DNA of 64,000 bases, taken from positions 19,648 through 83,647 of the forward strand of contig JBFLFV010000010.1 in the NCBI GenBank assembly GCA_041859795.1. The letters run 5' to 3'. This document shows, one piece after another, positions 20,497-28,850 of the stretch. Below the pieces are notes generated by a model, which saw only the letters and a list, made by a program, of their open reading frames with translations, did not search any database and was not told where the DNA came from. This DNA comes from Fermentimonas sp. Its GTDB lineage: Bacteria; Bacteroidota; Bacteroidia; Bacteroidales; Dysgonomonadaceae. Position numbers and translations under genes: made by a program. The first letter of the stretch is position 1. Each line of letters starts with the position of its first letter.

Positions 20497-21582
20497 TATG
20501 ATTATCCGCAATAGTTCCTATTATAAATTCTTGATTTGAAATCGGGTGTGTAAGTGAGGGCAGCTACCAGAAGCCGGTCAAACTGCTTCTCACCGAAATA
20601 ACGCCTGTTGAACTTGTAACAGAACTGATTTAGATAATATTGTAAGTATTCGGGTTTCATTTTGTAATATACGCCCAATAATTGTCGCTTGGCATTACTT
20701 ATTGCCGTATGGACCCAGGGCAGGACACTGGGGAGCTCCTTGGGTGGGATGACAGATGCCGTATGCGAATGGACATGTTCTTTTAATTGTGTATAGGAAG
20801 TCGAATCATCGGTGGTTAAATCCGCCGTGTTCTCGATGTGTTCTTTGACATTCTTTGTGATTGTATCGGACTTCAAATCGTTGATTACTTTCATTTTCAG
20901 GTATCTGACCTTCTTTGGTTTCTTGCCTGCTTTTGGACTTTCAACTGTTTTGCTTTCAGCCATTACCAATACTTTGGTCTTTTTCTGACTGCCGCGGCCG
21001 CGTTTCAACGGTTTATCCCTGTCTTCAAGGGATATTTCCGTGGAAAAAGAAGGCATCGTCCAGCTCGATGGCACCTTCAAGTGTGTACTCATCATCACGC
21101 TTGCCCATCACGTCACGCAGCTTATTGACCATTTCCCATATCGGCTGATAGCGCTTGTGTCCTAATTGGCGTTGCAGTTCAGCCGTAGAGAAGGAACCCT
21201 TGGTGGCTGTGAGCAGGTGCATGGCGACGAACCAGTAACGGTAAGGCAGGTTGGAGTGTTGCATGACAGTGCCTGAACGCAGGGTTTGGCGGGCATGGCA
21301 ACTCTTGCATTCATAGGCTTGTTTGTTTTGAAGCCAGTAATGTTCTTTACAATTACAATGACGACAAGTTATACCCATTTGCTCTCTTAGTTCTTTGAAT
21401 TTTTTCCGACAGGACTCCTCATCGGGGTAATTTATGGCAAAATCCAGGATATTCATAGCTCGAATTATTTTATTGTTGATGATGTAAATATAATGAATAT
21501 CAATGAATTGTGCAAACATTTTTGAAACTTATTTATAACTTTTTCTCGCTAAATTCTTTAGGAAGAACTGCGGATAATCATA
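20497..21582 (-). mobile_element. IS1595 family element
   Basis: 14-bp IR TATGATTATCCGCA; 8-bp TSD TAAAGTTT at 20489-20496 and 21583-21590. Confidence 0.9.
20502..21458 (-). pseudogene. IS1595 transposase, +1 frameshift in a T run near 21045
   Basis: MNILDFAINYPDEESC...CRHC...CKSC Zn ribbon; ELDDAFF continues as STE...KRGRGSQKK, LTTDD and YLNQFCYKFNRR in another frame. Confidence 0.88.
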
Positions 21583-21598
21583 TAAAGTTTTATCATTT

Positions 21599-22510
21599 CT
21601 ATAATTTTTCGTGATAAACCTTGTATTGTTCAGAAGCAATCTCCTTGAACACGTCACGCAGCCACTTGGGTTCCAGCACCTCTATATCAGCTCCATACGA
21701 TAACAATTCCTGTCGGAAATCAAAGGTAGGCTTGATATAAAAACGGAGTATAGTATAATCCGAAGTAACCTCCTCTTCCTCTTGTGAGGAGTGCAAAGGT
21801 AATGATTTAAAATATCGGTCTTGGCTCCTACCCACTTTAACTCGAACTCTCTCGGCACCTATCTCGTCATCGACAATAATTCCGTAACTATTGGCAAAGA
21901 AGGATTCCCCGTCGAAATCATCCGGTAAATGGAAGCTGTTTCCGGTGATCTGTGTGTTTTTAATCCGATCCAGCCCGTAAATAAGGATACGTTCTTTGTA
22001 GGGACTAAAGGCGATGACATACCATCGTTGCTTGAATATTTTCAGGCAATAGGGATGCACCTCGAACGTGGAAGGAGAATCATTCCAGAAGCTTTGATAC
22101 GTAATTTCCAGAGACAAGCCATCTCTCATAGCCTCAATAATGGGAGTAAGATGCATCTGTCCGGAAGGTATATTCTCGAACAGGATACGTTGTTTGAGCC
22201 GATGGCTTTCATTGATCAGATTATTGACGGCAAACGTGTTCAATAGCCAACTTCGCACACCTCCCCGCTCCATATCCTCTGCATTTTCGATATAGTATCG
22301 ATAACCGTCCCACTTATCGCATTCTATATTGATATCGAACATCTGTTCAATCGCTTTACGATGATTATGGAATGTTCTCAAAGGAATATCGTCGCCCGTA
22401 AGGTTAAGCGAAGACCGTAGCCAATAGTCGTTGATCTCCTCGAAGGTGATTCTTTCCCTCCGGTAGATAATGTCCACCAACCACACGTAGCGGTTAAACA
22501 AATTGGACAT
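21599..22510 (-). CDS. WYL-domain transcriptional regulator 1 (wHTH-WYL-WCX)
   Basis: MSNLFNRYVWLVDII, LRTFHNHR HTH, VHPYCLKIFKQRWYVIA, YGLDRI, ELLSYGADIEVLEP. The ORF track extends upstream to 22558. Confidence 0.92.
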   Translation of the reverse strand: MSNLFNRYVWLVDIIYRRERITFEEINDYWLRSSLNLTGDDIPLRTFHNHRKAIEQMFDINIECDKWDGYRYYIENAEDMERGGVRSWLLNTFAVNNLINESHRLKQRILFENIPSGQMHLTPIIEAMRDGLSLEITYQSFWNDSPSTFEVHPYCLKIFKQRWYVIAFSPYKERILIYGLDRIKNTQITGNSFHLPDDFDGESFFANSYGIIVDDEIGAERVRVKVGRSQDRYFKSLPLHSSQEEEEVTSDYTILRFYIKPTFDFRQELLSYGADIEVLEPKWLRDVFKEIASEQYKVYHEKL

Positions 22511-22563
22511 GCTCTCTTTATTGCTATTTCTTTTTTGCATATCAATTATAAACAACACTACAC

Positions 22564-22582
22564 TACGCCAAATAATGGCGCA
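22564..22582. promoter_or_regulatory. Candidate WYL1 operator TACGCC-N7-GGCGCA
   Basis: CGCCA AATAA TGGCG inverted repeat between a terminator and the WYL1 start. Confidence 0.55.
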
Positions 22583-22600
22583 TCTAAAACAAAATACAAT

Positions 22601-22626
22601 AAAACTGCCCGGAATTGGGCAGCTTT
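22601..22626 (-). terminator. Intrinsic terminator after the zinc-finger gene
   Basis: AAAACTGCCC-GGAATT-GGGCAGCTTT hairpin followed by a U-rich tract on the minus strand. Confidence 0.7.
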
Positions 22627-22642
22627 AGGCCTTACGGCAAAG

Positions 22643-22894
22643 TTATAACGCGGGGGAGTGCTTCCCTTTAGCAAACCCATTGGGATGCCTGGGGCAATTA
22701 TTCACGGTCAATGCCGGCAAATCTTTGAAAGTAAAACCGCAATACTTACACGTGTATTTACTTTTCTCGCTGCCCTCGTACAACTTGTGCTTGCCTTTAC
22801 CAAGCCCGTCAGGATGTCTGGGACAATTATTCGAGGACAAACCCATGGCCGATAAAAATTTCCGACCACAATATTCACAATAATAATTTGCCAT
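22643..22894 (-). CDS. 83-aa protein with two tandem putative zinc-finger repeats
   Basis: Two repeats YxCxYCGxxFxxxxxLxxNNCPRHPxGxxKGKH. Conservation at the protein level with variable spacer residues supports coding. Confidence 0.85.
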   Translation of the reverse strand: MANYYCEYCGRKFLSAMGLSSNNCPRHPDGLGKGKHKLYEGSEKSKYTCKYCGFTFKDLPALTVNNCPRHPNGFAKGKHSPAL

Positions 22895-22928
22895 TTAAAT
22901 ATCAAATTCAAGTTTTTAATCCAAAGCT

Positions 22929-23651
22929 TCACTCCAACGACATATAGTCTTTCACTGCATTGATAATATAATCGCAATATTCTATACGGGTCTCACCTGC
23001 TCTTCTCCATCCATTATTAGGATGATAAGTATCAATCAATAACTTATTTTGGAATTGATAGACCGGGAGCCATTCCGCGATTTTTTCCTTACCCTTAAAA
23101 TAATCCGAAAAGTATCCGAATGTTCCACCAAAAATCATTACATCAGGATCAATAATCTCAATTTGCTCATGTAATAATGTTTTGTACTTATTGTAAAATC
23201 TTTTAATATCATTCATATTCGCGTTGCTTCCACCCGCGTATTTTTTCACGTTAATGTGGGCAATACAGGGCATATATTTCAATACTTCTTGGGCATTTCC
23301 ATTCATTTCTAGAATATCACTCATATTCTTATTTTCAAAAATCCCATAAGTAGCATAGGCGACCGCACGCCATGTAGGTGCCCATAAACGATCCATGACA
23401 TCGGGATTGTCATTATCATTTAATGAGGCGATATTGGGTCTCATATCAGGCAAAGAATCATCATCGCTATGCGCTTCCTTCAAAATCCAAAGAATTTTTA
23501 CCGGAGCCTCCAAATATTTCGATGCATTTACGATTCCATCACGAACAAATGACATTCTTTCTCCCGTTTCTGTATTGATTGGAAGTTCAATAGCATGTTC
23601 AAACCTTACCAGTTGTTCTTCGATTTTTTTCTCGAGCTGTTCCTGTTTCAT
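22929..23651 (-). CDS. Hypothetical protein, probable uracil-DNA-glycosylase-like fold
   Basis: KILWILKE, AHINVKK, EQIEIIDPDVMIFGGT and DTYHP resemble UDG-superfamily motifs. Confidence 0.6.
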   Translation of the reverse strand: MKQEQLEKKIEEQLVRFEHAIELPINTETGERMSFVRDGIVNASKYLEAPVKILWILKEAHSDDDSLPDMRPNIASLNDNDNPDVMDRLWAPTWRAVAYATYGIFENKNMSDILEMNGNAQEVLKYMPCIAHINVKKYAGGSNANMNDIKRFYNKYKTLLHEQIEIIDPDVMIFGGTFGYFSDYFKGKEKIAEWLPVYQFQNKLLIDTYHPNNGWRRAGETRIEYCDYIINAVKDYMSLE

Positions 23652-23750
23652 ATTTGTTCTTTTTTATTCACAATTACTTACACATTCATCACAATTCAGA
23701 TTTTTCATTTCTCCCTAAGTAATAACTTCCCATACAGAAATATCACATTT

Positions 23751-23972
23751 TTAATCCAACTGCACAAACTCAAAATCGTTCTTGTTGCAACACGCTTTCT
23801 GGTAATCAAAACGATACAATCGGAGATAGGCCTCTTTAATCTCTTTGGCTCCGTTATAAAAAGGGTCGTTAGTGTGTTGTTGGGTCGTGATCGTGACCGA
23901 CATCGACGGGGTTAAAACTGTTCCGTTTACTCTCTTAACACGCTTGGGGGTTATTCTAAATACTTTTGCCAT
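23751..23972 (-). CDS. Small hypothetical protein (DUF6140-like, from recall)
   Basis: MAKVFRITPKR...VNGTVLTPSMSVTI...DPFYNG pattern; own TATCTTTG promoter element at 24006-24013. Confidence 0.6.
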   Translation of the reverse strand: MAKVFRITPKRVKRVNGTVLTPSMSVTITTQQHTNDPFYNGAKEIKEAYLRLYRFDYQKACCNKNDFEFVQLD

Positions 23973-24075
23973 AGCAGTTTATCATGAGATTTATTAAATT
24001 TTCATCAAAGATATAGAAACAATTCCACATAACATCATTAAAATTAATATAAAATTCAATGCTTGAGAAGCATTC

Positions 24076-24765
24076 CTAATCAAAATCAGGAATCTCTTCA
24101 ATTTCCGTAAAATATTGATACTGAACATGTACTTCTGCCCACAAATTATTGATTCGCAGAATATCCGGAAAACTCCAACCGGTAGCATGATCGTATATAT
24201 TATGAATTGCTTGCGAGATATAATGATCGTCGAATAAACCTCGGAACCAATGATCTATATTCCAATTTTGCTCCCTGTTTAGCTCCAGTAGATTATCAAG
24301 ATCATTTGTATTGGAAATCGAAGCGGACATATTCCAGTCGTCCCAATTATCCATCAACACTTCTTGGATACCATCCTCTTTTTCGTAGAATTCACCGTCT
24401 TCACAAGCCTCATAGAAATAGGGCGTAACTTTTATTTCTATCTCGAAATCACGTAAAAAATCATCCTCGTTATCGATACGTTGCTGCAGTAAGGCAAGTG
24501 TTGCGGAGGCTTCCGTTTTCAGTTTTTCAAAACAGTCAATCAGCTTCCGGTTCAGAGAGAGAAAACGCTCCTTTTTTTCCGGTGTCCATTCAAAAGATTG
24601 GTTAAGTTTATATTTCCTCTCACCCAACGCTACCTCCACCTTAACCTTGTCTCCTTTCTGGTTTGCCCGAATAGCAATTTCTTCCAATCGTTCGATGGAA
24701 TAAGCCTCGAACTTGTCGCTCAGCCTTAAATACCTTTCTCGATCCTTCTTTTGCATGGTGACCAA
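24076..24765 (-). CDS. Hypothetical protein (229 aa, acidic C-terminal half)
   Basis: Long ORF co-oriented with the cluster; no recognisable motif. Confidence 0.7.
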   Translation of the reverse strand: MVTMQKKDRERYLRLSDKFEAYSIERLEEIAIRANQKGDKVKVEVALGERKYKLNQSFEWTPEKKERFLSLNRKLIDCFEKLKTEASATLALLQQRIDNEDDFLRDFEIEIKVTPYFYEACEDGEFYEKEDGIQEVLMDNWDDWNMSASISNTNDLDNLLELNREQNWNIDHWFRGLFDDHYISQAIHNIYDHATGWSFPDILRINNLWAEVHVQYQYFTEIEEIPDFD

Positions 24766-24774
24766 TCTAAATTT

Positions 24775-25476
24775 TCAACAAAAACCTATTTTTTTCTATC
24801 ATTCTTATAGAATCCCATTTTCACAATAGTACCGTATTCTTTTAAATGATGGCATTGCACCATTCAAGATTGAGTCAACGGTACATTTACGAGCTATATT
24901 TTCTATTTGACCCCCACTTAAATCTTTGGTTCCGGCTAACTCTTGACTCTCTTCTTCGGATAGTGACGTTAGCATCATTTTCCAAATACTTTCTTTAGCC
25001 TCTAAGCTGGGTTTATCAAATTCAATCTTGTACAAAAATCTCCGATCGAATGCCTTATCCACATTTCGAGTAAGGTTAGTGGTTGCAATCAAGATACCTT
25101 TCAGATTCTCTATTTCCTGCAACAGGATATTTTGAATCGTATTCTCTAATTGGTTAATATGGCTGTTTCCTACCTCCCTTCGGCTTCCAATTATCGCGTC
25201 CGCCTCATTAAAAAGTAAGATAGGAGCTACCTCTTTGGCATCAACGTGGTACCGATAGGTGTCGAAAATCTGTTTGATTCTCTTTTCACTTTCTCCATAC
25301 CACATGCTTTTTATCTCGGAGATATCCACACCGTTGTGATTGATAAATCGATGGCAAAAATAAAGCAATAAAGGAAAGATATTTTGCTCATCACACACCT
25401 CCGCGTATTTTTGAAGTTGAATACAAAAAGGTAAAGAGGGGTTGTCTTCTACCAAAGAGCGCAATTCCATTCGCAA
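24775..25476 (-). pseudogene. Decayed AAA+ ATPase paralog (Walker A deleted)
   Basis: Retains KSMWYGESEK, LLFNEADA, LIATTN and DKAFDRRF but lacks GxxGxGKT. A KKIGF tail lies beyond the in-frame stops. Confidence 0.75.
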
Positions 25477-25547
25477 CGGATCACTGGTTATCTCACTTTT
25501 CGTTCAACACGGCGGAATTTACAAAAACAGTGGAAAGAAAAATTTTC

Positions 25548-26450
25548 TTACTGATAAGATGATAATGCCGTTTCCAAAGTCTTTTTTATATCTGCAATCA
25601 AACTTTCAGGCTCAATCACTTTCACATTTTCTCCAAAAAAGAGAATTTCCATAATAAAATCATGCGTAATATAGAGTTTCAACTTTATCCGCAATTCGTC
25701 GTCGTTGTCGGTCAGCACCTCCTGCGTTTCGTGCAGCGGCAGCGATTTGATATATCTTCCTTGAAAAGGAGTGAATGAAAGGATAACATCTTCCGGCTCC
25801 TGCTCTTCGTAAGGGCTTATAACTCCAAAGCAATGACGGAAATACCCATTCAAATCAAAATCGACGGGAAAACGAAAGTGTGTTTTGCTTATTTCCAAAT
25901 TCGAGAGGCGGTCGAGTCCGAAAGTCTTTATTTTGCCGTCTTTCAAATCCTTGCCGAGGACGTACCAACGATTCCGAAATTCTTTCAGCGCATAAGGCTC
26001 GATAGTTCGGTTGCCTGTTTCTTCTTCCCAATATTTCAGGTGGTCAAAACTTATAACAAACCTGTTTTGAACGGCACGAAGCAAGCCGTACAGATTTTCA
26101 AGGCCTTGGGGTTTCCGCTTTTCGAACTGTATATGTTCCGAAACGCGGGAAGCAAGATTCATTGCGTTCAACATATCGAAAGCCTCGAAAAGGCGTTCGT
26201 TTAATTCGGTTTTTTCATCCGACACAATTCGATAGACTTTTGTCGAACGATCGTACTCAATCTCGATATTGTAGAGCGAAGCAATATCCTGCACATCACG
26301 TTGGAAGGTCCGCAGCGAAATATTAAAATTATATTCGTGTATTTCTGATTGCAATTTTAAATATGTCGCTATTTTCTCAAAATTCGAAGGCGTCTTCCGC
26401 AGTTTTTCTATGATCAAACTTTGACGGAATAATGTTTCTCTTTTGGACAT
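25548..26450 (-). CDS. WYL-domain transcriptional regulator 2 (wHTH-WYL-WCX)
   Basis: ISLRTFQRDVQDI HTH, IEPYALKEFRNRWYVLG, TFGLDR, GENVKVIEP. Start is probably MSKRE at 26450. Confidence 0.93.
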   Translation of the reverse strand: MSKRETLFRQSLIIEKLRKTPSNFEKIATYLKLQSEIHEYNFNISLRTFQRDVQDIASLYNIEIEYDRSTKVYRIVSDEKTELNERLFEAFDMLNAMNLASRVSEHIQFEKRKPQGLENLYGLLRAVQNRFVISFDHLKYWEEETGNRTIEPYALKEFRNRWYVLGKDLKDGKIKTFGLDRLSNLEISKTHFRFPVDFDLNGYFRHCFGVISPYEEQEPEDVILSFTPFQGRYIKSLPLHETQEVLTDNDDELRIKLKLYITHDFIMEILFFGENVKVIEPESLIADIKKTLETALSSYQ

Positions 26451-26478
26451 ACCGTGTTGGTTTTTAGCTATTGAAATA

Positions 26479-26520
26479 CGAAGATAAAACTTTACAGCGA
26501 TAAAACATGTCGCCGTAAAG
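26479..26520 (-). promoter_or_regulatory. WYL2 promoter -7 box and palindromic operator candidate
   Basis: TATCTTCG (-7-like, 26479-26486) and the inverted repeat CTTTACAGCGA-N9-TCGCCGTAAAG (core CGAT-N7-GTCG). Confidence 0.65.
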
Positions 26521-26528
26521 TTCATTTT

Positions 26529-28202
26529 TCAAAAACCTATCTTTTTTCTTGTTTTTAAGTTGATTTTTTCTGCATCGCAAAGTCCGCATAATTCACCAAA
26601 AGTAGGATTCTCGCCCGTTAAGATGTTATGAACAGTATATTTTCGGGTTATATTTTCAATTTGTCCTCCGCTGAAATCGTAAGTTTCCGACAGTGTTGTT
26701 AATTCCTCGTCTTTCAATTCGGGAAGCATCGTTTTCCAAATCGCCTGTTTTGCTTCAAGCGAAGGCTTTCCAAATTCTATTTTATAAATAAATCTGCGTT
26801 CAAAAGCCTTGTCTAAATTCTGTATGAGATTGGTTGTGGCGATAAGAATCCCATCTAAATTTTCCATTTCCTGCAAAATAATATTCTGAATGGAATTTTC
26901 CATTTTATCGACAGCCCTGCTTGCGCCTTCGTTGCGGATACCCAACACCGCATCAGCCTCGTTAAACAGAAGTATGGGCGCAATTTCCGATTGTCTTACA
27001 TGCTCTCGGTAAGACTCAAAAGACTCTTTGATATTCTTTTCGCTTTCTCCTACCCACATGCTTTTTATGCGTGAAACATCTATCGGAAAAATATCGCGTC
27101 CCGTTTGTCGTGCAAGCTGATATACCGTTTCAGTTTTACCAGTGCCGGGAGTGCCGTAAAATAAACAGGCAAAACCTTGTCTCATGCCATTTTCTGCAAG
27201 ACGGTTACGGATGTCGTCAAAATTTTCCTGTTTCAGCAAATTGCTTAATTGCTCAATCTGTTTTCGCTCGTTTTCGTTGTAAAACAATTTTTTATCGGCA
27301 ATCGAATCCTGTAAAATAAAATATTTTTTATTCAATGGTTTTCTCCAGTCAATATTCATCTCTGAAAGTAATTCTTTTTTTGCAAAATCAGTCAGTTTGA
27401 AACTTTCTACGTCTATAAACCCATCATTGTAGGCATTTTCTATCAATTTATAGTCAAATAAGGCATTGTATTGTTTTTGCAACGAATTATAGAGACGGCT
27501 GCCCGCATATCTTTCAAAAAAATCTTCAAAATCATAAAGACCTATATTGTCGTCTTTATCGCGCACAAAGAGCAGACAGAAACGTAGTAGCAGCAACTTG
27601 TCCATGCAACCGAGATTATACGCTTCCGTTTTTTCAACAAAAGTCAATTGAGAATTATCTTCAAACAAGGAGTCTATCTCATCTATTAAACCCATGTATG
27701 TCAATTCATTCTCTTTTCTTTCATCAAATAATTTTTCCAATTCCAGAAAAAAATCAGCAAGTGAAATATTTTTTTTATTGGCGGGTATATATTCCTTATC
27801 CTCTATAAACGAGTCGAGAACCTCTCGAGGAACACGGAAATAGGTTTGTTCGCCGTTTCGTCTGCTGCAACGAATCAAGCGTCTCTTCTCCAACACATCA
27901 ATATCACTCATATATTGTAGCAGTTTGATAGTACGGCATCCGATAGTTTTAGAAATTTCGCTGATATAAATACTATGATCCTCGCTTTTATCTATAAAAT
28001 GTGATAACAACACAACCTGCATATCATTTAGTTGTAAGCGCTTTTTAAGCAGATCGATATGCGGTTTTGCCTTTTCAAAAAACTCATTATTTAATTCTGA
28101 GTTTTCTGAAAGCTCCACTATTTTTTCAATATGAGCCAAAACACCAAGATTCATTCCGTCCGTTGCGTCAGACGCTTCTTTTGTTACGTTCAATTGTATC
28201 AT
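26529..28202 (-). CDS. AAA+ ATPase (single Cdc48/SpoVK-like module) with a ~300-aa N-terminal region
   Basis: LFYGTPGTGKT Walker A, LLFNEADA Walker B, LIATTNL sensor, LDKAFERRF arginine finger, terminal KKIGF. Confidence 0.93.
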   Translation of the reverse strand: MIQLNVTKEASDATDGMNLGVLAHIEKIVELSENSELNNEFFEKAKPHIDLLKKRLQLNDMQVVLLSHFIDKSEDHSIYISEISKTIGCRTIKLLQYMSDIDVLEKRRLIRCSRRNGEQTYFRVPREVLDSFIEDKEYIPANKKNISLADFFLELEKLFDERKENELTYMGLIDEIDSLFEDNSQLTFVEKTEAYNLGCMDKLLLLRFCLLFVRDKDDNIGLYDFEDFFERYAGSRLYNSLQKQYNALFDYKLIENAYNDGFIDVESFKLTDFAKKELLSEMNIDWRKPLNKKYFILQDSIADKKLFYNENERKQIEQLSNLLKQENFDDIRNRLAENGMRQGFACLFYGTPGTGKTETVYQLARQTGRDIFPIDVSRIKSMWVGESEKNIKESFESYREHVRQSEIAPILLFNEADAVLGIRNEGASRAVDKMENSIQNIILQEMENLDGILIATTNLIQNLDKAFERRFIYKIEFGKPSLEAKQAIWKTMLPELKDEELTTLSETYDFSGGQIENITRKYTVHNILTGENPTFGELCGLCDAEKINLKTRKKIGF

Positions 28203-28240
28203 AATTGTATTATTTTTTGTGATGATTCAACTTTTGCAAG

Positions 28241-28553
28241 CTACATAAACCCGCTTGTAGTAGGTTTTGAAATCGGCCATTGTTCCGGTGCACTAGTACC
28301 AAAACAGATTTGAGCGTTTGGTCATTCTTTTGCGGCATTTCTTGCCGTATCATTTTTACCTTATGCAGATGTTACCCCAAAAGGCTTGTTCTTTTTTTCT
28401 CTTTTTTAGCAAGCAGATTAAAATCTAAATATAATCAGCATAATGTATAACCTTGAAAACGAAAAAAGAACCAGCACAACTTTGTAATGATTGCCGTACA
28501 TTACATTGTCAGCATTAAGAAAACCGAATTTTTAATCCAAAATGTCAAAGAGC
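28241..28553 (-). ncRNA. Candidate structured leader RNA/ncRNA upstream of the AAA ATPase
   Basis: Nested stems (28384-28413 with 28452-28475, enclosing 28413-28439), hairpins at 28333-28347 and 28241-28260, boxA-like GCTCTTTGACA at 28543-28553, no credible ORF. Confidence 0.4.
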
Positions 28554-28778
28554 GTATGAAACTGAAAATTCTCTCTATGGCTTTTCACTTAAAGTAAAAA
28601 GTTGCTTACTTCTGAAAGTATTATCGCTTCTTTGTGGTGCAACATATTTTTTTGGCTTGTATTTCAAACATATAACTTCTGAATATCAGAGACTTGCCAA
28701 ATTTTAAACATTGCTTTTTTGTAGTAAAAAAGCGAGTTTTGATACCTGCGAAAGTTGAGTTATTTTTGTTTGAGAATA

Positions 28779-28819
28779 CAAAGATGGGGAGAGAGGACGA
28801 CAATCTGTGTCGCTGTAAA
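28779..28819 (-). promoter_or_regulatory. Second copy of the -7 box plus CGAC-N7-GTCG operator candidate
   Basis: CATCTTTG (28779-28786) and CGAC-AATCTGT-GTCGCTGTAAA, with the same 11-bp spacing as at 26479-26520. Confidence 0.6.
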
Positions 28820-28822
28820 TAA

Positions 28823-28850
28823 AAACTGCAACTTTTTTGAGTTGCAGTTT
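28823..28850 (-). terminator. Intrinsic terminator
   Basis: AAACTGCAACT-N6-AGTTGCAGTTT hairpin downstream of the DUF262-like remnant. Confidence 0.7.

What the first reader, a model, noticed from the sequence alone, without database searches (positions are those of the whole stretch)
22643..22894. Bacterial microprotein with two eukaryote-like zinc-finger repeats
Seen: both repeats fit Y-x-C-x2-C-x3-F-x5-L, the hydrophobic-core spacing of classical C2H2 fingers, but continue as x4-C-x2-H-x8-H (NNCPRHPxGxxKGKH), offering C3H or C2H2 coordination with a spare ligand. Inference: a nucleic-acid- or redox-sensing tandem zinc finger, possibly a WYL co-effector. It is small enough to be missed by annotation.
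Basis: partly seen in the sequence, partly recalled or inferred. Interest (0 to 1): 0.7.

Follow-up and report, generated by a model that had tools for sequence, protein, structure and literature searches.

The report
Bacterial tandem CCCH zinc-finger microprotein
A real, conserved 83-residue bacterial protein made of two zinc fingers that start like classical eukaryotic C2H2 fingers and finish differently; its uncharacterised, horizontally scattered family sits among nuclease genes in WYL-controlled defence islands, and its function is still unknown.

Summary
ORF 22643-22894 (-) encodes 83 aa with two repeats of Y-x-C-x2-C-x3-F-x5-L-x4-C-x2-H-x8-H. It is a real gene (dN/dS 0.12). The family has at least 955 clusters at 90% identity, nearly all 83 aa, and occurs sporadically in Bacteroidota and Spirochaetota (2 of 301 genomes of the phylum) and on plasmids.

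Only the front half and the TGEKP-like linker resemble classical C2H2 fingers. Family variation points to a CCCH site (C6, C9, C24 and the distal H36), with H27-P28 as the spare residue. The AlphaFold model (pLDDT 82) shows a beta-hairpin and a short helix per repeat. No solved or viral structure matches it.

The gene lies in nuclease-rich defence islands. WYL genes are within four genes in 25 of 83 loci, alongside GmrSD/DUF262, DEDDh exonuclease, AAA ATPase and PD-(D/E)XK genes. No partner is fixed. The gene usually heads an operon. In this window it is the last gene of a 6.2-kb unit that starts at a WYL-type operator-promoter and ends at a terminator. WYL1 has its own promoter.

Homologues fused to membrane proteins, or carrying signal peptides, argue against a purely DNA-binding role. 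The best guess is a basic, two-faced nucleic-acid-binding accessory factor (confidence about 0.45). It is a new variant of a known kind, and it is not missed by annotation.

The parts
22643..22894 (-). Gene for the 83-aa tandem zinc-finger protein (stop codon included)
   Evidence: ORF. Homologues. dN/dS 0.12.
22787..22885 (-). Finger 1 (residues 4-36): Y-x-C-x2-C-x3-F-x5-L-x4-C-x2-H-P-x-G-x2-K-G-x-H. Likely zinc ligands are C6, C9, C24 and H36.
   Evidence: Conservation. Ligand inference. AlphaFold strands 4-6 and 12-13 and helix 16-21.
22757..22786 (-). Linker (residues 37-46), K-L-Y-E-G-S-E-K-S-K, which resembles the classical H-TGEKP-Y-x-C linker
   Evidence: L38, Y39, E40, G41, E43 and K44 are at least 94% conserved. 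Pfam zf-H2C2_2 matches residues 43-57.
22658..22756 (-). Finger 2 (residues 47-79), with the same pattern. Likely ligands are C49, C52, C67 and H79.
22600..22627 (-). Intrinsic-terminator-like hairpin (11-bp stem plus T-tract) 16 nt after the zinc-finger stop codon
   Evidence: Scan. Fold of -21 kcal/mol, z = -4.2.
22564..22582 (-). Inverted repeat CGCCA-N5-TGGCG between the terminator and WYL1: a candidate WYL1 operator, separate from the zinc-finger unit
   Evidence: Sequence read. Same geometry as CGACA-N5-TGTCG.
21599..22558 (-). WYL1 (WYL plus WCX domains), the next gene downstream, which starts its own unit
   Evidence: Pfam. PADLOC WYL.
22929..23651 (-). 240-aa protein of unknown function (UDG-like motif order), 34 bp upstream of the zinc-finger gene. 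It is absent at this position in the closest relative, L005.
25548..28202 (-). AAA ATPase (26529-28202) plus WYL2 (25548-26525), a pair that recurs next to zinc-finger genes in other genomes
   Evidence: Pfam and PADLOC. Recurrence.
28779..28812 (-). Operator-promoter CGACACAGATTGTCG-N12-CATCTTTG at the head of the co-oriented unit that ends with the zinc-finger gene. It is the only such site in the genome.
   Evidence: The same architecture precedes zinc-finger genes in at least 12 other genomes.
28823..28850 (-). Terminator-like hairpin that closes the preceding unit, so that 28812..22600 reads as one transcription unit

Best explanation
Shown:
- The ORF is a genuine gene for a small, strongly basic protein without a signal peptide (net charge +8, pI 9.3).
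- The protein has two tandem zinc-finger units joined by a TGEKP-like linker. Each unit has the beta-hairpin and short helix of a classical C2H2 finger. The two helix histidines are replaced by a Cys just after the helix and a distal His at the end of an 11-residue loop, giving C-x2-C-x14-C-x11-H (CCCH). A conserved His-Pro (H27/H70) is left over.
- It belongs to a large, uncharacterised accessory family spread horizontally through Bacteroidota and Spirochaetota.
- The family lives in nuclease-rich defence islands governed by WYL regulators.
- In this window it is the last gene of a 6.2-kb unit that begins at a WYL-type operator-promoter and ends at a terminator right after it.

Inferred:
- The gene is expressed together with the island.
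- The two fingers are kept alike within each protein. Each offers a helix face that varies at the classical -1/+2/+3/+6 positions, next to invariant Lys/Arg loops.
- With these it binds a repetitive polyanion, most likely DNA or RNA. It then acts as an accessory nucleic-acid-binding factor (sensor, recruiter or regulator) for whichever nuclease or NTPase genes lie beside it. It is not a dedicated partner of the WYL protein.
For: Real gene and family.

Finger anatomy:
- Pfam zf-C2H2 and zf-H2C2_2 match the front half and the linker. The best PDB profile hits are classical C2H2 fingers.
- The AlphaFold model has pLDDT 82, with a hairpin and helix 16-21 or 59-64 in each repeat.
- Ligand set: 58 of 526 fingers lack His at C24+3, and all 58 keep the distal His or Cys. 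Only 4 lack the distal ligand. A protein with at least 11 fingers has Ser at the H27 position throughout. H36 is replaced only by Cys.

Binding faces:
- Variable positions 17, 18 and 21 are helix +2, +3 and +6. They are 65% identical between the two fingers of one protein and 23% identical between proteins.
- Family net charge averages +7.2.

Context:
- WYL is near the gene in 25 of 83 loci. GmrSD/DUF262 is in 24 (plus 16 with the N-domain only), DEDDh in 12, an IetA-like AAA ATPase in 10, metallophosphoesterase in 8 and PD-(D/E)XK in 6. Dynamin-like, KAP NTPase and ion-channel genes also occur.
- The Myroides plasmid pFM-G13 carries the zinc-finger gene followed by DUF262.
- The gene is usually promoter-proximal: the median gap is 27 bp downstream and 113 bp upstream.
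- The own genome has only two WYL genes, both in this cluster.
- The promoter architecture is shared between the window's AAA-WYL2 unit and zinc-finger genes elsewhere.
- Terminators bracket the unit.
- BrxR (a WYL protein) and BrxU (DUF262/GmrSD) sharing a defence island is a published precedent (PMC8565348).
Against:
- About a third of the 50%-identity clusters attach the same fingers to the C-terminus of membrane proteins: SH3_3-TM, DUF805, TM2, DnaJ-6TM and Sel1-TM. Others place them behind cleavable-looking signal peptides. This is hard to reconcile with a nucleic-acid ligand for the whole family.
- Residues at the variable helix positions are mostly Ser, Ala, Thr, Gly or Asn rather than the Arg, Asp, Gln or His typical of base reading.
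- The conserved upstream DNA and RNA elements do not co-vary with the finger signature.
- No structural neighbour gives a functional lead.
- Part of the likeness between the two fingers comes from DNA-level copying: codon identity is 0.51 against a background of 0.30.
Confidence: 0.45

Rival explanations
1. The finger pair is a protein- or ligand-binding adaptor that works close to the membrane. Its target would be a protein, a phospholipid or another phosphate-rich envelope molecule, not nucleic acid. The 83-aa form is then the free-standing version of a module that elsewhere forms the tail of membrane proteins.
For: - Two or three fingers sit at the extreme C-terminus of proteins with 1-9 predicted TM segments.
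- Recurrent architectures are SP-SH3_3-TM-linker-ZF in four clusters, plus DUF805-ZF, TM2-ZF, DnaJ-6TM-ZF and Sel1-TM-ZF.
- About 20 clusters have AxA-type signal peptides directly in front of finger 1. In L047 the long form starts with an ATGA overlap on the upstream gene.
- The variable face is made of small polar residues.
Against: - The window protein and most of the family have no hydrophobic segment.
- The genomic company consists of nucleases and NTPases that act on DNA.
- No gene for a candidate protein partner travels consistently with the zinc-finger gene.
- Membrane-tethered nucleic-acid-binding domains are known to exist (ToxR-type regulators, from general knowledge).
- The TM predictions here come from a crude hydropathy scan.
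Confidence: 0.3
2. It is a sequence-specific, autoregulatory transcription factor for the operon it heads. Each variant recognises its own repeated operator through the variable helix residues.
For: - It is typically the first gene, with its own promoter, followed within 30 bp by variable cargo genes.
- It is basic.
- Variability falls at the classical recognition positions.
- The fingers are kept identical, as expected for a repeated half-site.
Against: - In this window it is the last gene of its unit, not the first.
- The upstream regions of group A are conserved across very different finger signatures.
- No repeat or palindrome shared with the signature was found.
- The recognition residues are small and uncharged.
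- Exported and membrane forms exist.
Confidence: 0.15
3. It is a metal- or redox-responsive switch, or a zinc buffer. The five conserved Cys/His per repeat would allow ligand exchange on oxidation or metal stress.
For: - There is one spare conserved His per repeat.
- Forms on both sides of the membrane would fit a ligand as ubiquitous as a metal ion.
Against: - No metal-homeostasis or redox genes occur in any of the 83 neighbourhoods.
- The distribution is rare and patchy, which is typical of accessory defence cargo.
- The spare His is dispensable in 11% of fingers.
Confidence: 0.05
4. It is a chance ORF or a pseudogene with no function.
For: None beyond its small size.
Against: - There are hundreds of orthologues of identical length.
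- dN/dS is 0.12.
- Ligand columns are invariant.
- Translation signals are adapted to the host.
Confidence: 0.01

Closest known systems
Classical C2H2 (TFIIIA/Zif268-type) tandem zinc fingers, Pfam PF00096 / PF13465
   Same: - The Y-x-C-x2-C-x3-F-x5-L front half, with a beta-hairpin and then a helix.
- Tandem units about 43 residues apart.
- A linker of the form H-x4-G-x-E-K-x2-Y-x-C, like H-TGEKP-Y-x-C.
- Variability concentrated at helix positions +2, +3 and +6.

   Different: - There is no H-x3-5-H in the helix. Asn occupies the place of the first His.
- Ligands 3 and 4 are a Cys two residues after the helix and a His 11 residues further on, with an extra conserved H-P-x-G-x2-K-G loop.
- Only model positions 1-17 of 23 match.
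- It is bacterial, with two to three fingers and no other domain.
Ros/MucR prokaryotic zinc-finger family (PMC9779718)
   Same: A bacterial protein with a C2H2-like zinc site. It is the only well-studied prokaryotic relative of eukaryotic fingers.
   Different: - Ros/MucR has one finger inside a roughly 58-residue globular domain, oligomerises and acts like H-NS in alpha-proteobacteria.
- The window protein did not match the Ros/MucR Pfam model.
- The fingers here are tandem, with a different ligand spacing, a different phylum and an accessory rather than core distribution.
WYL-regulated defence islands such as BrxR/BrxU on pEFER (PMC8565348)
   Same: A WYL regulator and a DUF262/DUF1524 (GmrSD-family) nuclease share an island. 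Operator-bearing promoters are a common feature.
   Different: No small zinc-finger gene is described there. The zinc-finger family is absent from PADLOC-DB 2.0.
Small cytoplasmic zinc ribbons fused to DUF805/TM2/RDD-type membrane modules (from memory of Pfam architectures, not tested)
   Same: The zinc-finger module is fused to DUF805, TM2 and DnaJ-TM proteins, as those ribbons are.
   Different: The fold here is hairpin-helix, not a two-knuckle ribbon. The module sits at the C-terminus, and most members are free-standing.

Membership tests
Classical C2H2 zinc finger (PF00096) | C-x2-4-C knuckle in a beta-hairpin with conserved aromatic and Leu core spacing | tested here: met
   Both repeats have Y-x-C-x2-C-x3-F-x5-L. 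The columns are conserved.
Classical C2H2 zinc finger (PF00096) | Two His ligands, H-x3-5-H, on the helix 12 residues after the second Cys | tested here: not met
   Position 22 is Asn, Gly, Ser or Ala. The helix (16-21) has no His pair. Ligands 3 and 4 are C24 and H36.
Classical C2H2 zinc finger (PF00096) | Pfam score above the gathering threshold over the whole model | tested here: inconclusive
   The summed score is 25.4 bits against 25.2, but each repeat matches only model positions 1-17 of 23.
Classical C2H2 zinc finger (PF00096) | Beta-beta-alpha fold superimposable on solved fingers | tested here: inconclusive
Classical C2H2 zinc finger (PF00096) | Zinc actually bound | not testable with these tools
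   Needs ICP-MS or spectroscopy.
Ros/MucR | Match to the ROS_MucR domain; a single finger in a roughly 58-aa globular domain | tested here: not met
   It does not appear among the Pfam matches at E up to 1. The architecture is tandem.
Dedicated WYL partner ('co-effector') | Conserved adjacency or co-transcription with a WYL gene across the family | tested here: not met
   WYL lies within four genes in 25 of 83 loci, in any position and on either strand. In the window a terminator and a separate operator intervene.
WYL-island regulon member | Enrichment near WYL genes and a shared operator-promoter | tested here: met
   30% of loci have a WYL gene nearby, against about 1% expected. Both WYL genes of the genome flank it. 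The CGACA-N4-ATTGKC-N12 -7-box promoter precedes zinc-finger genes elsewhere and the window's unit. Regulation itself was not tested.
Known anti-phage defence system component (PADLOC-DB 2.0) | Match to a defence-system HMM | tested here: not met
   There are no PADLOC hits for the zinc-finger protein. Its neighbours hit WYL, IetA-like, PDC-S01/S10/S26/S48 and HEC-06.
Zinc ribbon / rubredoxin-like | Two CxxC-type knuckles on two hairpins, with no helix between them | tested here: not met
   A helix follows the first knuckle. The C-P-x-H 'second knuckle' loses its His in 11% of fingers while the distal His stays.

The most novel reading that the evidence does not exclude
This is a bacterial lineage of true classical-type tandem zinc fingers, with a beta-beta-alpha front half and a TGEKP-like linker. 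The helix face would diversify like a recognition code and be kept identical across the fingers of one protein. The result would be a programmable nucleic-acid (or repeat-polymer) recognition module used by defence islands, fused to membrane effectors in some lineages and expanded to at least 11 fingers in others. It would be a prokaryotic counterpart, or relative, of eukaryotic poly-zinc-finger proteins.
Probability: 0.12. Interest if true: 0.85.

Novelty: new variant of a known kind. Interest (0 to 1): 0.55.

Why it matters
Apart from Ros/MucR, bacteria are thought to lack eukaryote-style zinc fingers, and tandem fingers with TGEKP-like linkers are regarded as a eukaryotic hallmark. This family has about a thousand 90%-identity clusters, no Pfam, NCBIfam or PADLOC family of its own, and no structural neighbour. 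It combines a classical front half with a new CCCH back half.

The family travels with WYL-regulated nuclease islands across two phyla. If it binds nucleic acid, it adds a new small recognition module to phage-defence biology and a data point on the origin of C2H2 fingers. If it binds something else, the membrane-fused and exported forms point to an unrecognised small zinc domain that works on both sides of the membrane.

In either case the protein is 9 kDa, soluble-looking and easy to test.

Tried and rejected
- **Family libraries.** NCBIfam, PHROGs and PADLOC gave nothing significant for the zinc-finger protein.
- **Phage genomes.** No match, so an anti-defence gene of sequenced phages is unlikely.
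- **Fixed partner gene.** Clustering 561 neighbour proteins found none. The 240-aa upstream gene recurs in only 2 other loci. It is at best distantly related to the c9 group next to other zinc-finger genes (hhalign 25%).
- **Operators upstream of the zinc-finger gene.** A scan for perfect palindromes gave no consistent site.
- **Gene conversion between the fingers.** Recent conversion as the sole cause of their likeness is rejected. Nucleotide identity between repeats averages 62%, and codon identity at sites with the same amino acid is 0.50 against 0.40-0.45. Some older copying remains likely, at 0.51 against 0.30 at variable sites.
- **Positive selection at variable codons.** Not seen (omega 0.26).
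- **DUF805b leader as a specific link to DUF805.** Weakened. The motif precedes very diverse genes, and the DUF805-ZF fusion is a singleton.
- **His-Me/HNH nuclease idea.** This came from weak HNH hits. Only the CxxC knuckle matches and there is no catalytic His on the strand.
- **Literature.** Searches found nothing on this family.

Full report
**The observation**

The window holds an ATG-initiated ORF at 22643..22894 on the minus strand that encodes 83 residues.
- Repeat 1: Y4-x-C6-x2-C9-x3-F13-x5-L19-x4-C24-x2-H27-x8-H36.
- Repeat 2: the same pattern shifted by 43 residues (Y47, C49, C52, F56, L62, C67, H70, H79).

NNCPRHPxGxxKGKH occurs in both repeats.

**It is a real gene**

- A word-indexed search found 955 clusters at 90% identity, almost all exactly 83 aa.
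- An exhaustive HMMER search of 50%-identity representatives found 441 clusters at E up to 0.001, and 228 at E up to 1e-10.
- Across 236 distinct sequences, these positions are 96-100% conserved: C6, C9, G10, L19, C24, H27, P28, G30, G34, H36, L38, Y39, G41, and their repeat-2 equivalents.
- Whole-gene dN/dS over 12 close pairs is 0.12.
- Copies in spirochaetes have AGGAG ribosome-binding sites and copies in Bacteroidota do not.
- RefSeq and GenBank annotate members as hypothetical proteins, and UniRef names one a 'C2H2-type domain-containing protein'. The gene is therefore not missed by annotation.

**What kind of finger it is**

Only the front half resembles a classical C2H2 finger.
- Pfam zf-C2H2 reaches 25.4 bits against a cut-off of 25.2, but each repeat matches only model positions 1-17 of 23.
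- zf-H2C2_2 matches the linker and the start of finger 2.
- A family profile searched against PDB sequences finds classical fingers (Teashirt, ZBTB17, Gfi-1) at E of about 6e-4, again only over the front half.
- The linker H36-K-L-Y-E-G-S-E-K-S-K-Y-T-C49 parallels H-TGEKP-Y-x-C.
- Arthropod-type poly-zinc-finger proteins appear in the exhaustive search through many partial matches. Their L-x2-H-x4-H-P aligns with L19...N22...H27-P28.

The AlphaFold2 model was built on 101 sequences and has mean pLDDT 82.3. Each repeat has strands at 4-6 and 12-13, a six-residue helix (16-21 or 59-64) and then a loop bridged back to residue 23.

Nothing in the structure libraries matches significantly:

| Library | Best result |
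|---|---|
| Foldseek, PDB | E = 2.0 |
| BFVD viral structures | E = 0.42 |

The non-significant top hits are C2H2 fingers.

**Which residues hold the zinc**

There are five candidate ligands per repeat. Natural variation separates them.
- H36/H79 is 98-99% conserved, and almost its only substitute is Cys. H27/H70 is replaced by Asn, Ser, Arg or Tyr in 3-4% of sequences.
- A 1494-aa relative carries at least 11 tandem fingers that read C-x2-S-P-x3-4-H. The SH3_3-fused relatives do the same.
- Of 526 fingers, 58 lack His at the C24+3 position and all 58 keep a distal His or Cys. Only 4 lack the distal ligand.

The site is therefore most likely CCCH, made of C6, C9, C24 and H36, that is C-x2-C-x14-C-x11-H. 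H27-P28 is a conserved non-ligand. Zinc binding itself remains untested.

**The two fingers are kept alike**

- The variable columns are 11, 13, 17, 18, 21-23, 25, 31 and 32. Counting from F13 as in Zif268, positions 17, 18 and 21 are helix positions +2, +3 and +6.
- At these columns the two fingers of one protein are 65% identical, while fingers of different proteins are 23% identical. Three-finger relatives show the same homogeneity.
- This is not recent gene conversion. The repeats are only 62% identical in DNA, and codon identity at sites with the same amino acid is 0.50 against 0.40-0.45 between genes.
- Some older copying is likely. At variable sites codon identity is 0.51, against 0.30 for the same amino acids at non-homologous sites.
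- The residues used are mostly Ser, Ala, Thr, Gly and Asn.
- The protein is basic, with net charge +8 and pI 9.3, against a family mean of +7.2.

**Distribution**

- The genome has one copy.
- Only 2 of 301 sampled genomes of the phylum carry the gene.
- Of the 80 best loci in species-representative genomes, about 54 are Bacteroidota and 16 are Spirochaetota (Treponema, Brachyspira, Brevinema, Turneriella). The rest are scattered metagenome bins that may be mis-binned.
- It occurs on plasmids of Myroides, Hymenobacter and Calditerrivibrio.
- It occurs in no sequenced phage.

This is the signature of horizontally moving accessory cargo.

**Neighbourhood**

I called ORFs in 83 loci and clustered 561 neighbours within four genes.

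| Recurrent neighbour family | Loci |
|---|---|
| WYL/WCX regulators | 25 |
| GmrSD-like DUF262+DUF1524 | 24 |
| 750-aa GmrSD N-domain protein | 16 |
| DEDDh exonuclease | 12 |
| IetA-like AAA ATPase, usually followed by WYL | 10 |
| Metallophosphoesterase (PDC-S10) | 8 |
| PD-(D/E)XK (PDC-S26) | 6 |
| AAA_14/DUF4143 (PDC-S01) | 4 |

Singletons include dynamin-like GTPases, a KAP NTPase, another GmrSD and an ion channel.

No family is a constant neighbour, and order and strand vary. The zinc-finger gene is usually promoter-proximal. The same-strand gap is a median of 27 bp downstream (30 of 57 at 30 bp or less) and 113 bp upstream.

WYL enrichment is far above chance. The window's genome has only two WYL genes, and both lie within 4 kb of the zinc-finger gene. 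A WYL regulator (BrxR) sharing an island with a DUF262/GmrSD enzyme (BrxU) is a published precedent (PMC8565348).

**Anatomy in the window**

On the minus strand two 11-bp-stem terminator-like hairpins, at 28850-28823 and 22627-22600, bracket one co-oriented block. The block runs in this order:
1. Promoter CGACACAGATTGTCG-N12-CATCTTTG (28812-28779)
2. Long leader
3. AAA ATPase
4. WYL2
5. Truncated AAA copy
6. 229-aa protein
7. DUF6140
8. 240-aa protein
9. The zinc-finger gene

That promoter pattern occurs once in the 2.65-Mb genome. After the zinc-finger terminator comes CGCCA-N5-TGGCG and then WYL1. The zinc-finger gene and WYL1 are therefore separate units.

In at least 12 other genomes the zinc-finger gene has its own promoter with the same architecture: (G/T)YGACA-N4-ATTGGC-N12-TAnnTTTG. 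Fully palindromic versions (GCGACAT...ATGTCGC) sit in front of WYL and AAA genes in the same loci. This supports membership of a WYL-type regulon. It does not support a physical WYL partnership.

**Evidence that complicates a nucleic-acid role**

Among 50%-identity representatives, two or three copies of the finger form the extreme C-terminus of membrane proteins:
- SP-SH3_3-TM-Ser-rich linker-ZF, in four clusters
- DUF805-ZF
- TM2-ZF
- DnaJ-6TM-ZF
- Sel1-TM-ZF

In the SH3_3 and DnaJ cases the fingers should be cytoplasmic.

About 20 further clusters have classical AxA signal peptides immediately before finger 1. One is in a Bacteroides isolate whose long ORF overlaps the upstream stop codon by ATGA. 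Those fingers should be exported. I cannot reconcile the two locations and record this as unexplained. The TM calls come from a simple hydropathy window.

**Most likely mechanism**

The steps that are shown:
- It is a real gene.
- It has a tandem finger architecture with a C2H2-like front half.
- It has a CCCH ligand pattern, inferred from family variation.
- It has a defence-island and WYL context.
- Its transcription-unit anatomy in the window is as described above.

The inferred step is that it is co-expressed with the island and binds a repetitive polyanion, most likely DNA or RNA, through two equivalent faces. On that reading it serves the neighbouring nucleases or NTPases as a sensor, recruiter or regulator. 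I give this 0.45.

| Rival explanation | Confidence |
|---|---|
| Protein- or lipid-binding adaptor near the membrane | 0.30 |
| Sequence-specific autoregulator | 0.15 |
| Metal or redox switch | 0.05 |
| Spurious ORF | 0.01 |

**Comparison with known families**

- It works most like a classical C2H2 tandem finger, but it fails that family's defining H-x3-5-H feature.
- It is not Ros/MucR.
- It is not in PADLOC, and it has no Pfam or NCBIfam family of its own.
- I class it as a new variant of a known kind.

**Limits**

- No complex prediction was possible.

Noticed in passing
L006-L009, L012, L017, L018, L036, L039, L040, L042, L049, L053, L058, L067, L069 (20-23 nt upstream of the zinc-finger ATG); not in the window: The Rfam DUF805b RNA motif (RF02914) sits at a fixed 20-23 nt before the start codon of the zinc-finger gene in at least 16 loci, just downstream of a TAnnTTTG -7 box. 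The stem covaries (AAGG/CTTT, GGGG/CCCC). The loop GCC/GCU appears to covary with the tail GGC/AGC, which suggests a pseudoknot.
   Followed up: partly
L088-L117 (genomes of the same phylum): DUF805b is found in 119 of 401 Bacteroidota genomes, with up to 15 copies per genome, often in tandem gene arrays. It precedes very diverse genes at 20-32 nt: signal-peptide proteins, GG-leader bacteriocin-like Cys-rich peptides and repeat proteins. It therefore looks like a general 5'-leader element rather than a DUF805-specific one.
   Followed up: partly
P0180 (1494 aa, unnamed metagenome protein): A giant relative with at least 11 tandem fingers of this type at its C-terminus. These fingers differ from each other, unlike those of the 2-3-finger proteins. 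It has no Pfam domain in its first 1000 residues or so.
   Followed up: partly
P0147, P0154, P0142, P0200, P0218, P0195, P0163, P0173; L047:5926-6255: A subset of the family has cleavable-looking signal peptides directly before finger 1, which implies exported zinc fingers. Other members (SH3_3-TM-ZF, DnaJ-6TM-ZF) place the fingers in the cytoplasm. This is unexplained.
   Followed up: partly
window 24805-25476 (-): The 223-aa AAA ORF is a truncated copy. Its orthologue in the closest relative (L005) is 580 aa, and the two aligned pieces cover only the C-terminal part. L005 also lacks the 240-aa gene, so DUF6140 abuts the zinc-finger gene there with a 19-bp gap.
   Followed up: partly
window 20502-21519 (-): An IS1595-family element lies between WYL1 and the DEDDh exonuclease/metallophosphoesterase pair. 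Its transposase is split into two overlapping ORFs: a zinc-ribbon part of 164 aa and a DDE part of 198 aa. It probably interrupts an older WYL1-DEDDh-Mphos unit.
   Followed up: no
window 22929-23651 (-); L047:5300-5929, L052:4015-4650, L075:6266-6922, L010:3877-4563: The 240-aa protein upstream of the zinc-finger gene and a 211-aa group (c9) next to zinc-finger genes elsewhere share a motif order: a beta-strand followed by (G/K)E(S/A)H, then PD(V/I)II, then YHP(S/N). They align weakly (hhalign probability 25%, E 7.5e-4), which is compatible with a divergent UDG-like fold.
   Followed up: partly
L001 (Flavobacterium magnum CP028811, 3108620-3124871): The zinc-finger gene lies in an array of more than 20 same-strand, mostly unannotated small genes separated by spacers of about 150-400 bp (FRG, ParE, DinB and YcxB domains among them). 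It looks like a cassette-type variable region.
   Followed up: no
window 28779-28812 and 26477-26519 (-); L049:6284-6304, L025:4915-4935, L012:9663-9683, L069:10497-10517: Palindromes of the type GCGACA-N5-7-TGTCGC lie immediately upstream of WYL and AAA-WYL genes in several phylogenetically distant loci. This is a candidate conserved operator for this WYL clade.
   Followed up: partly
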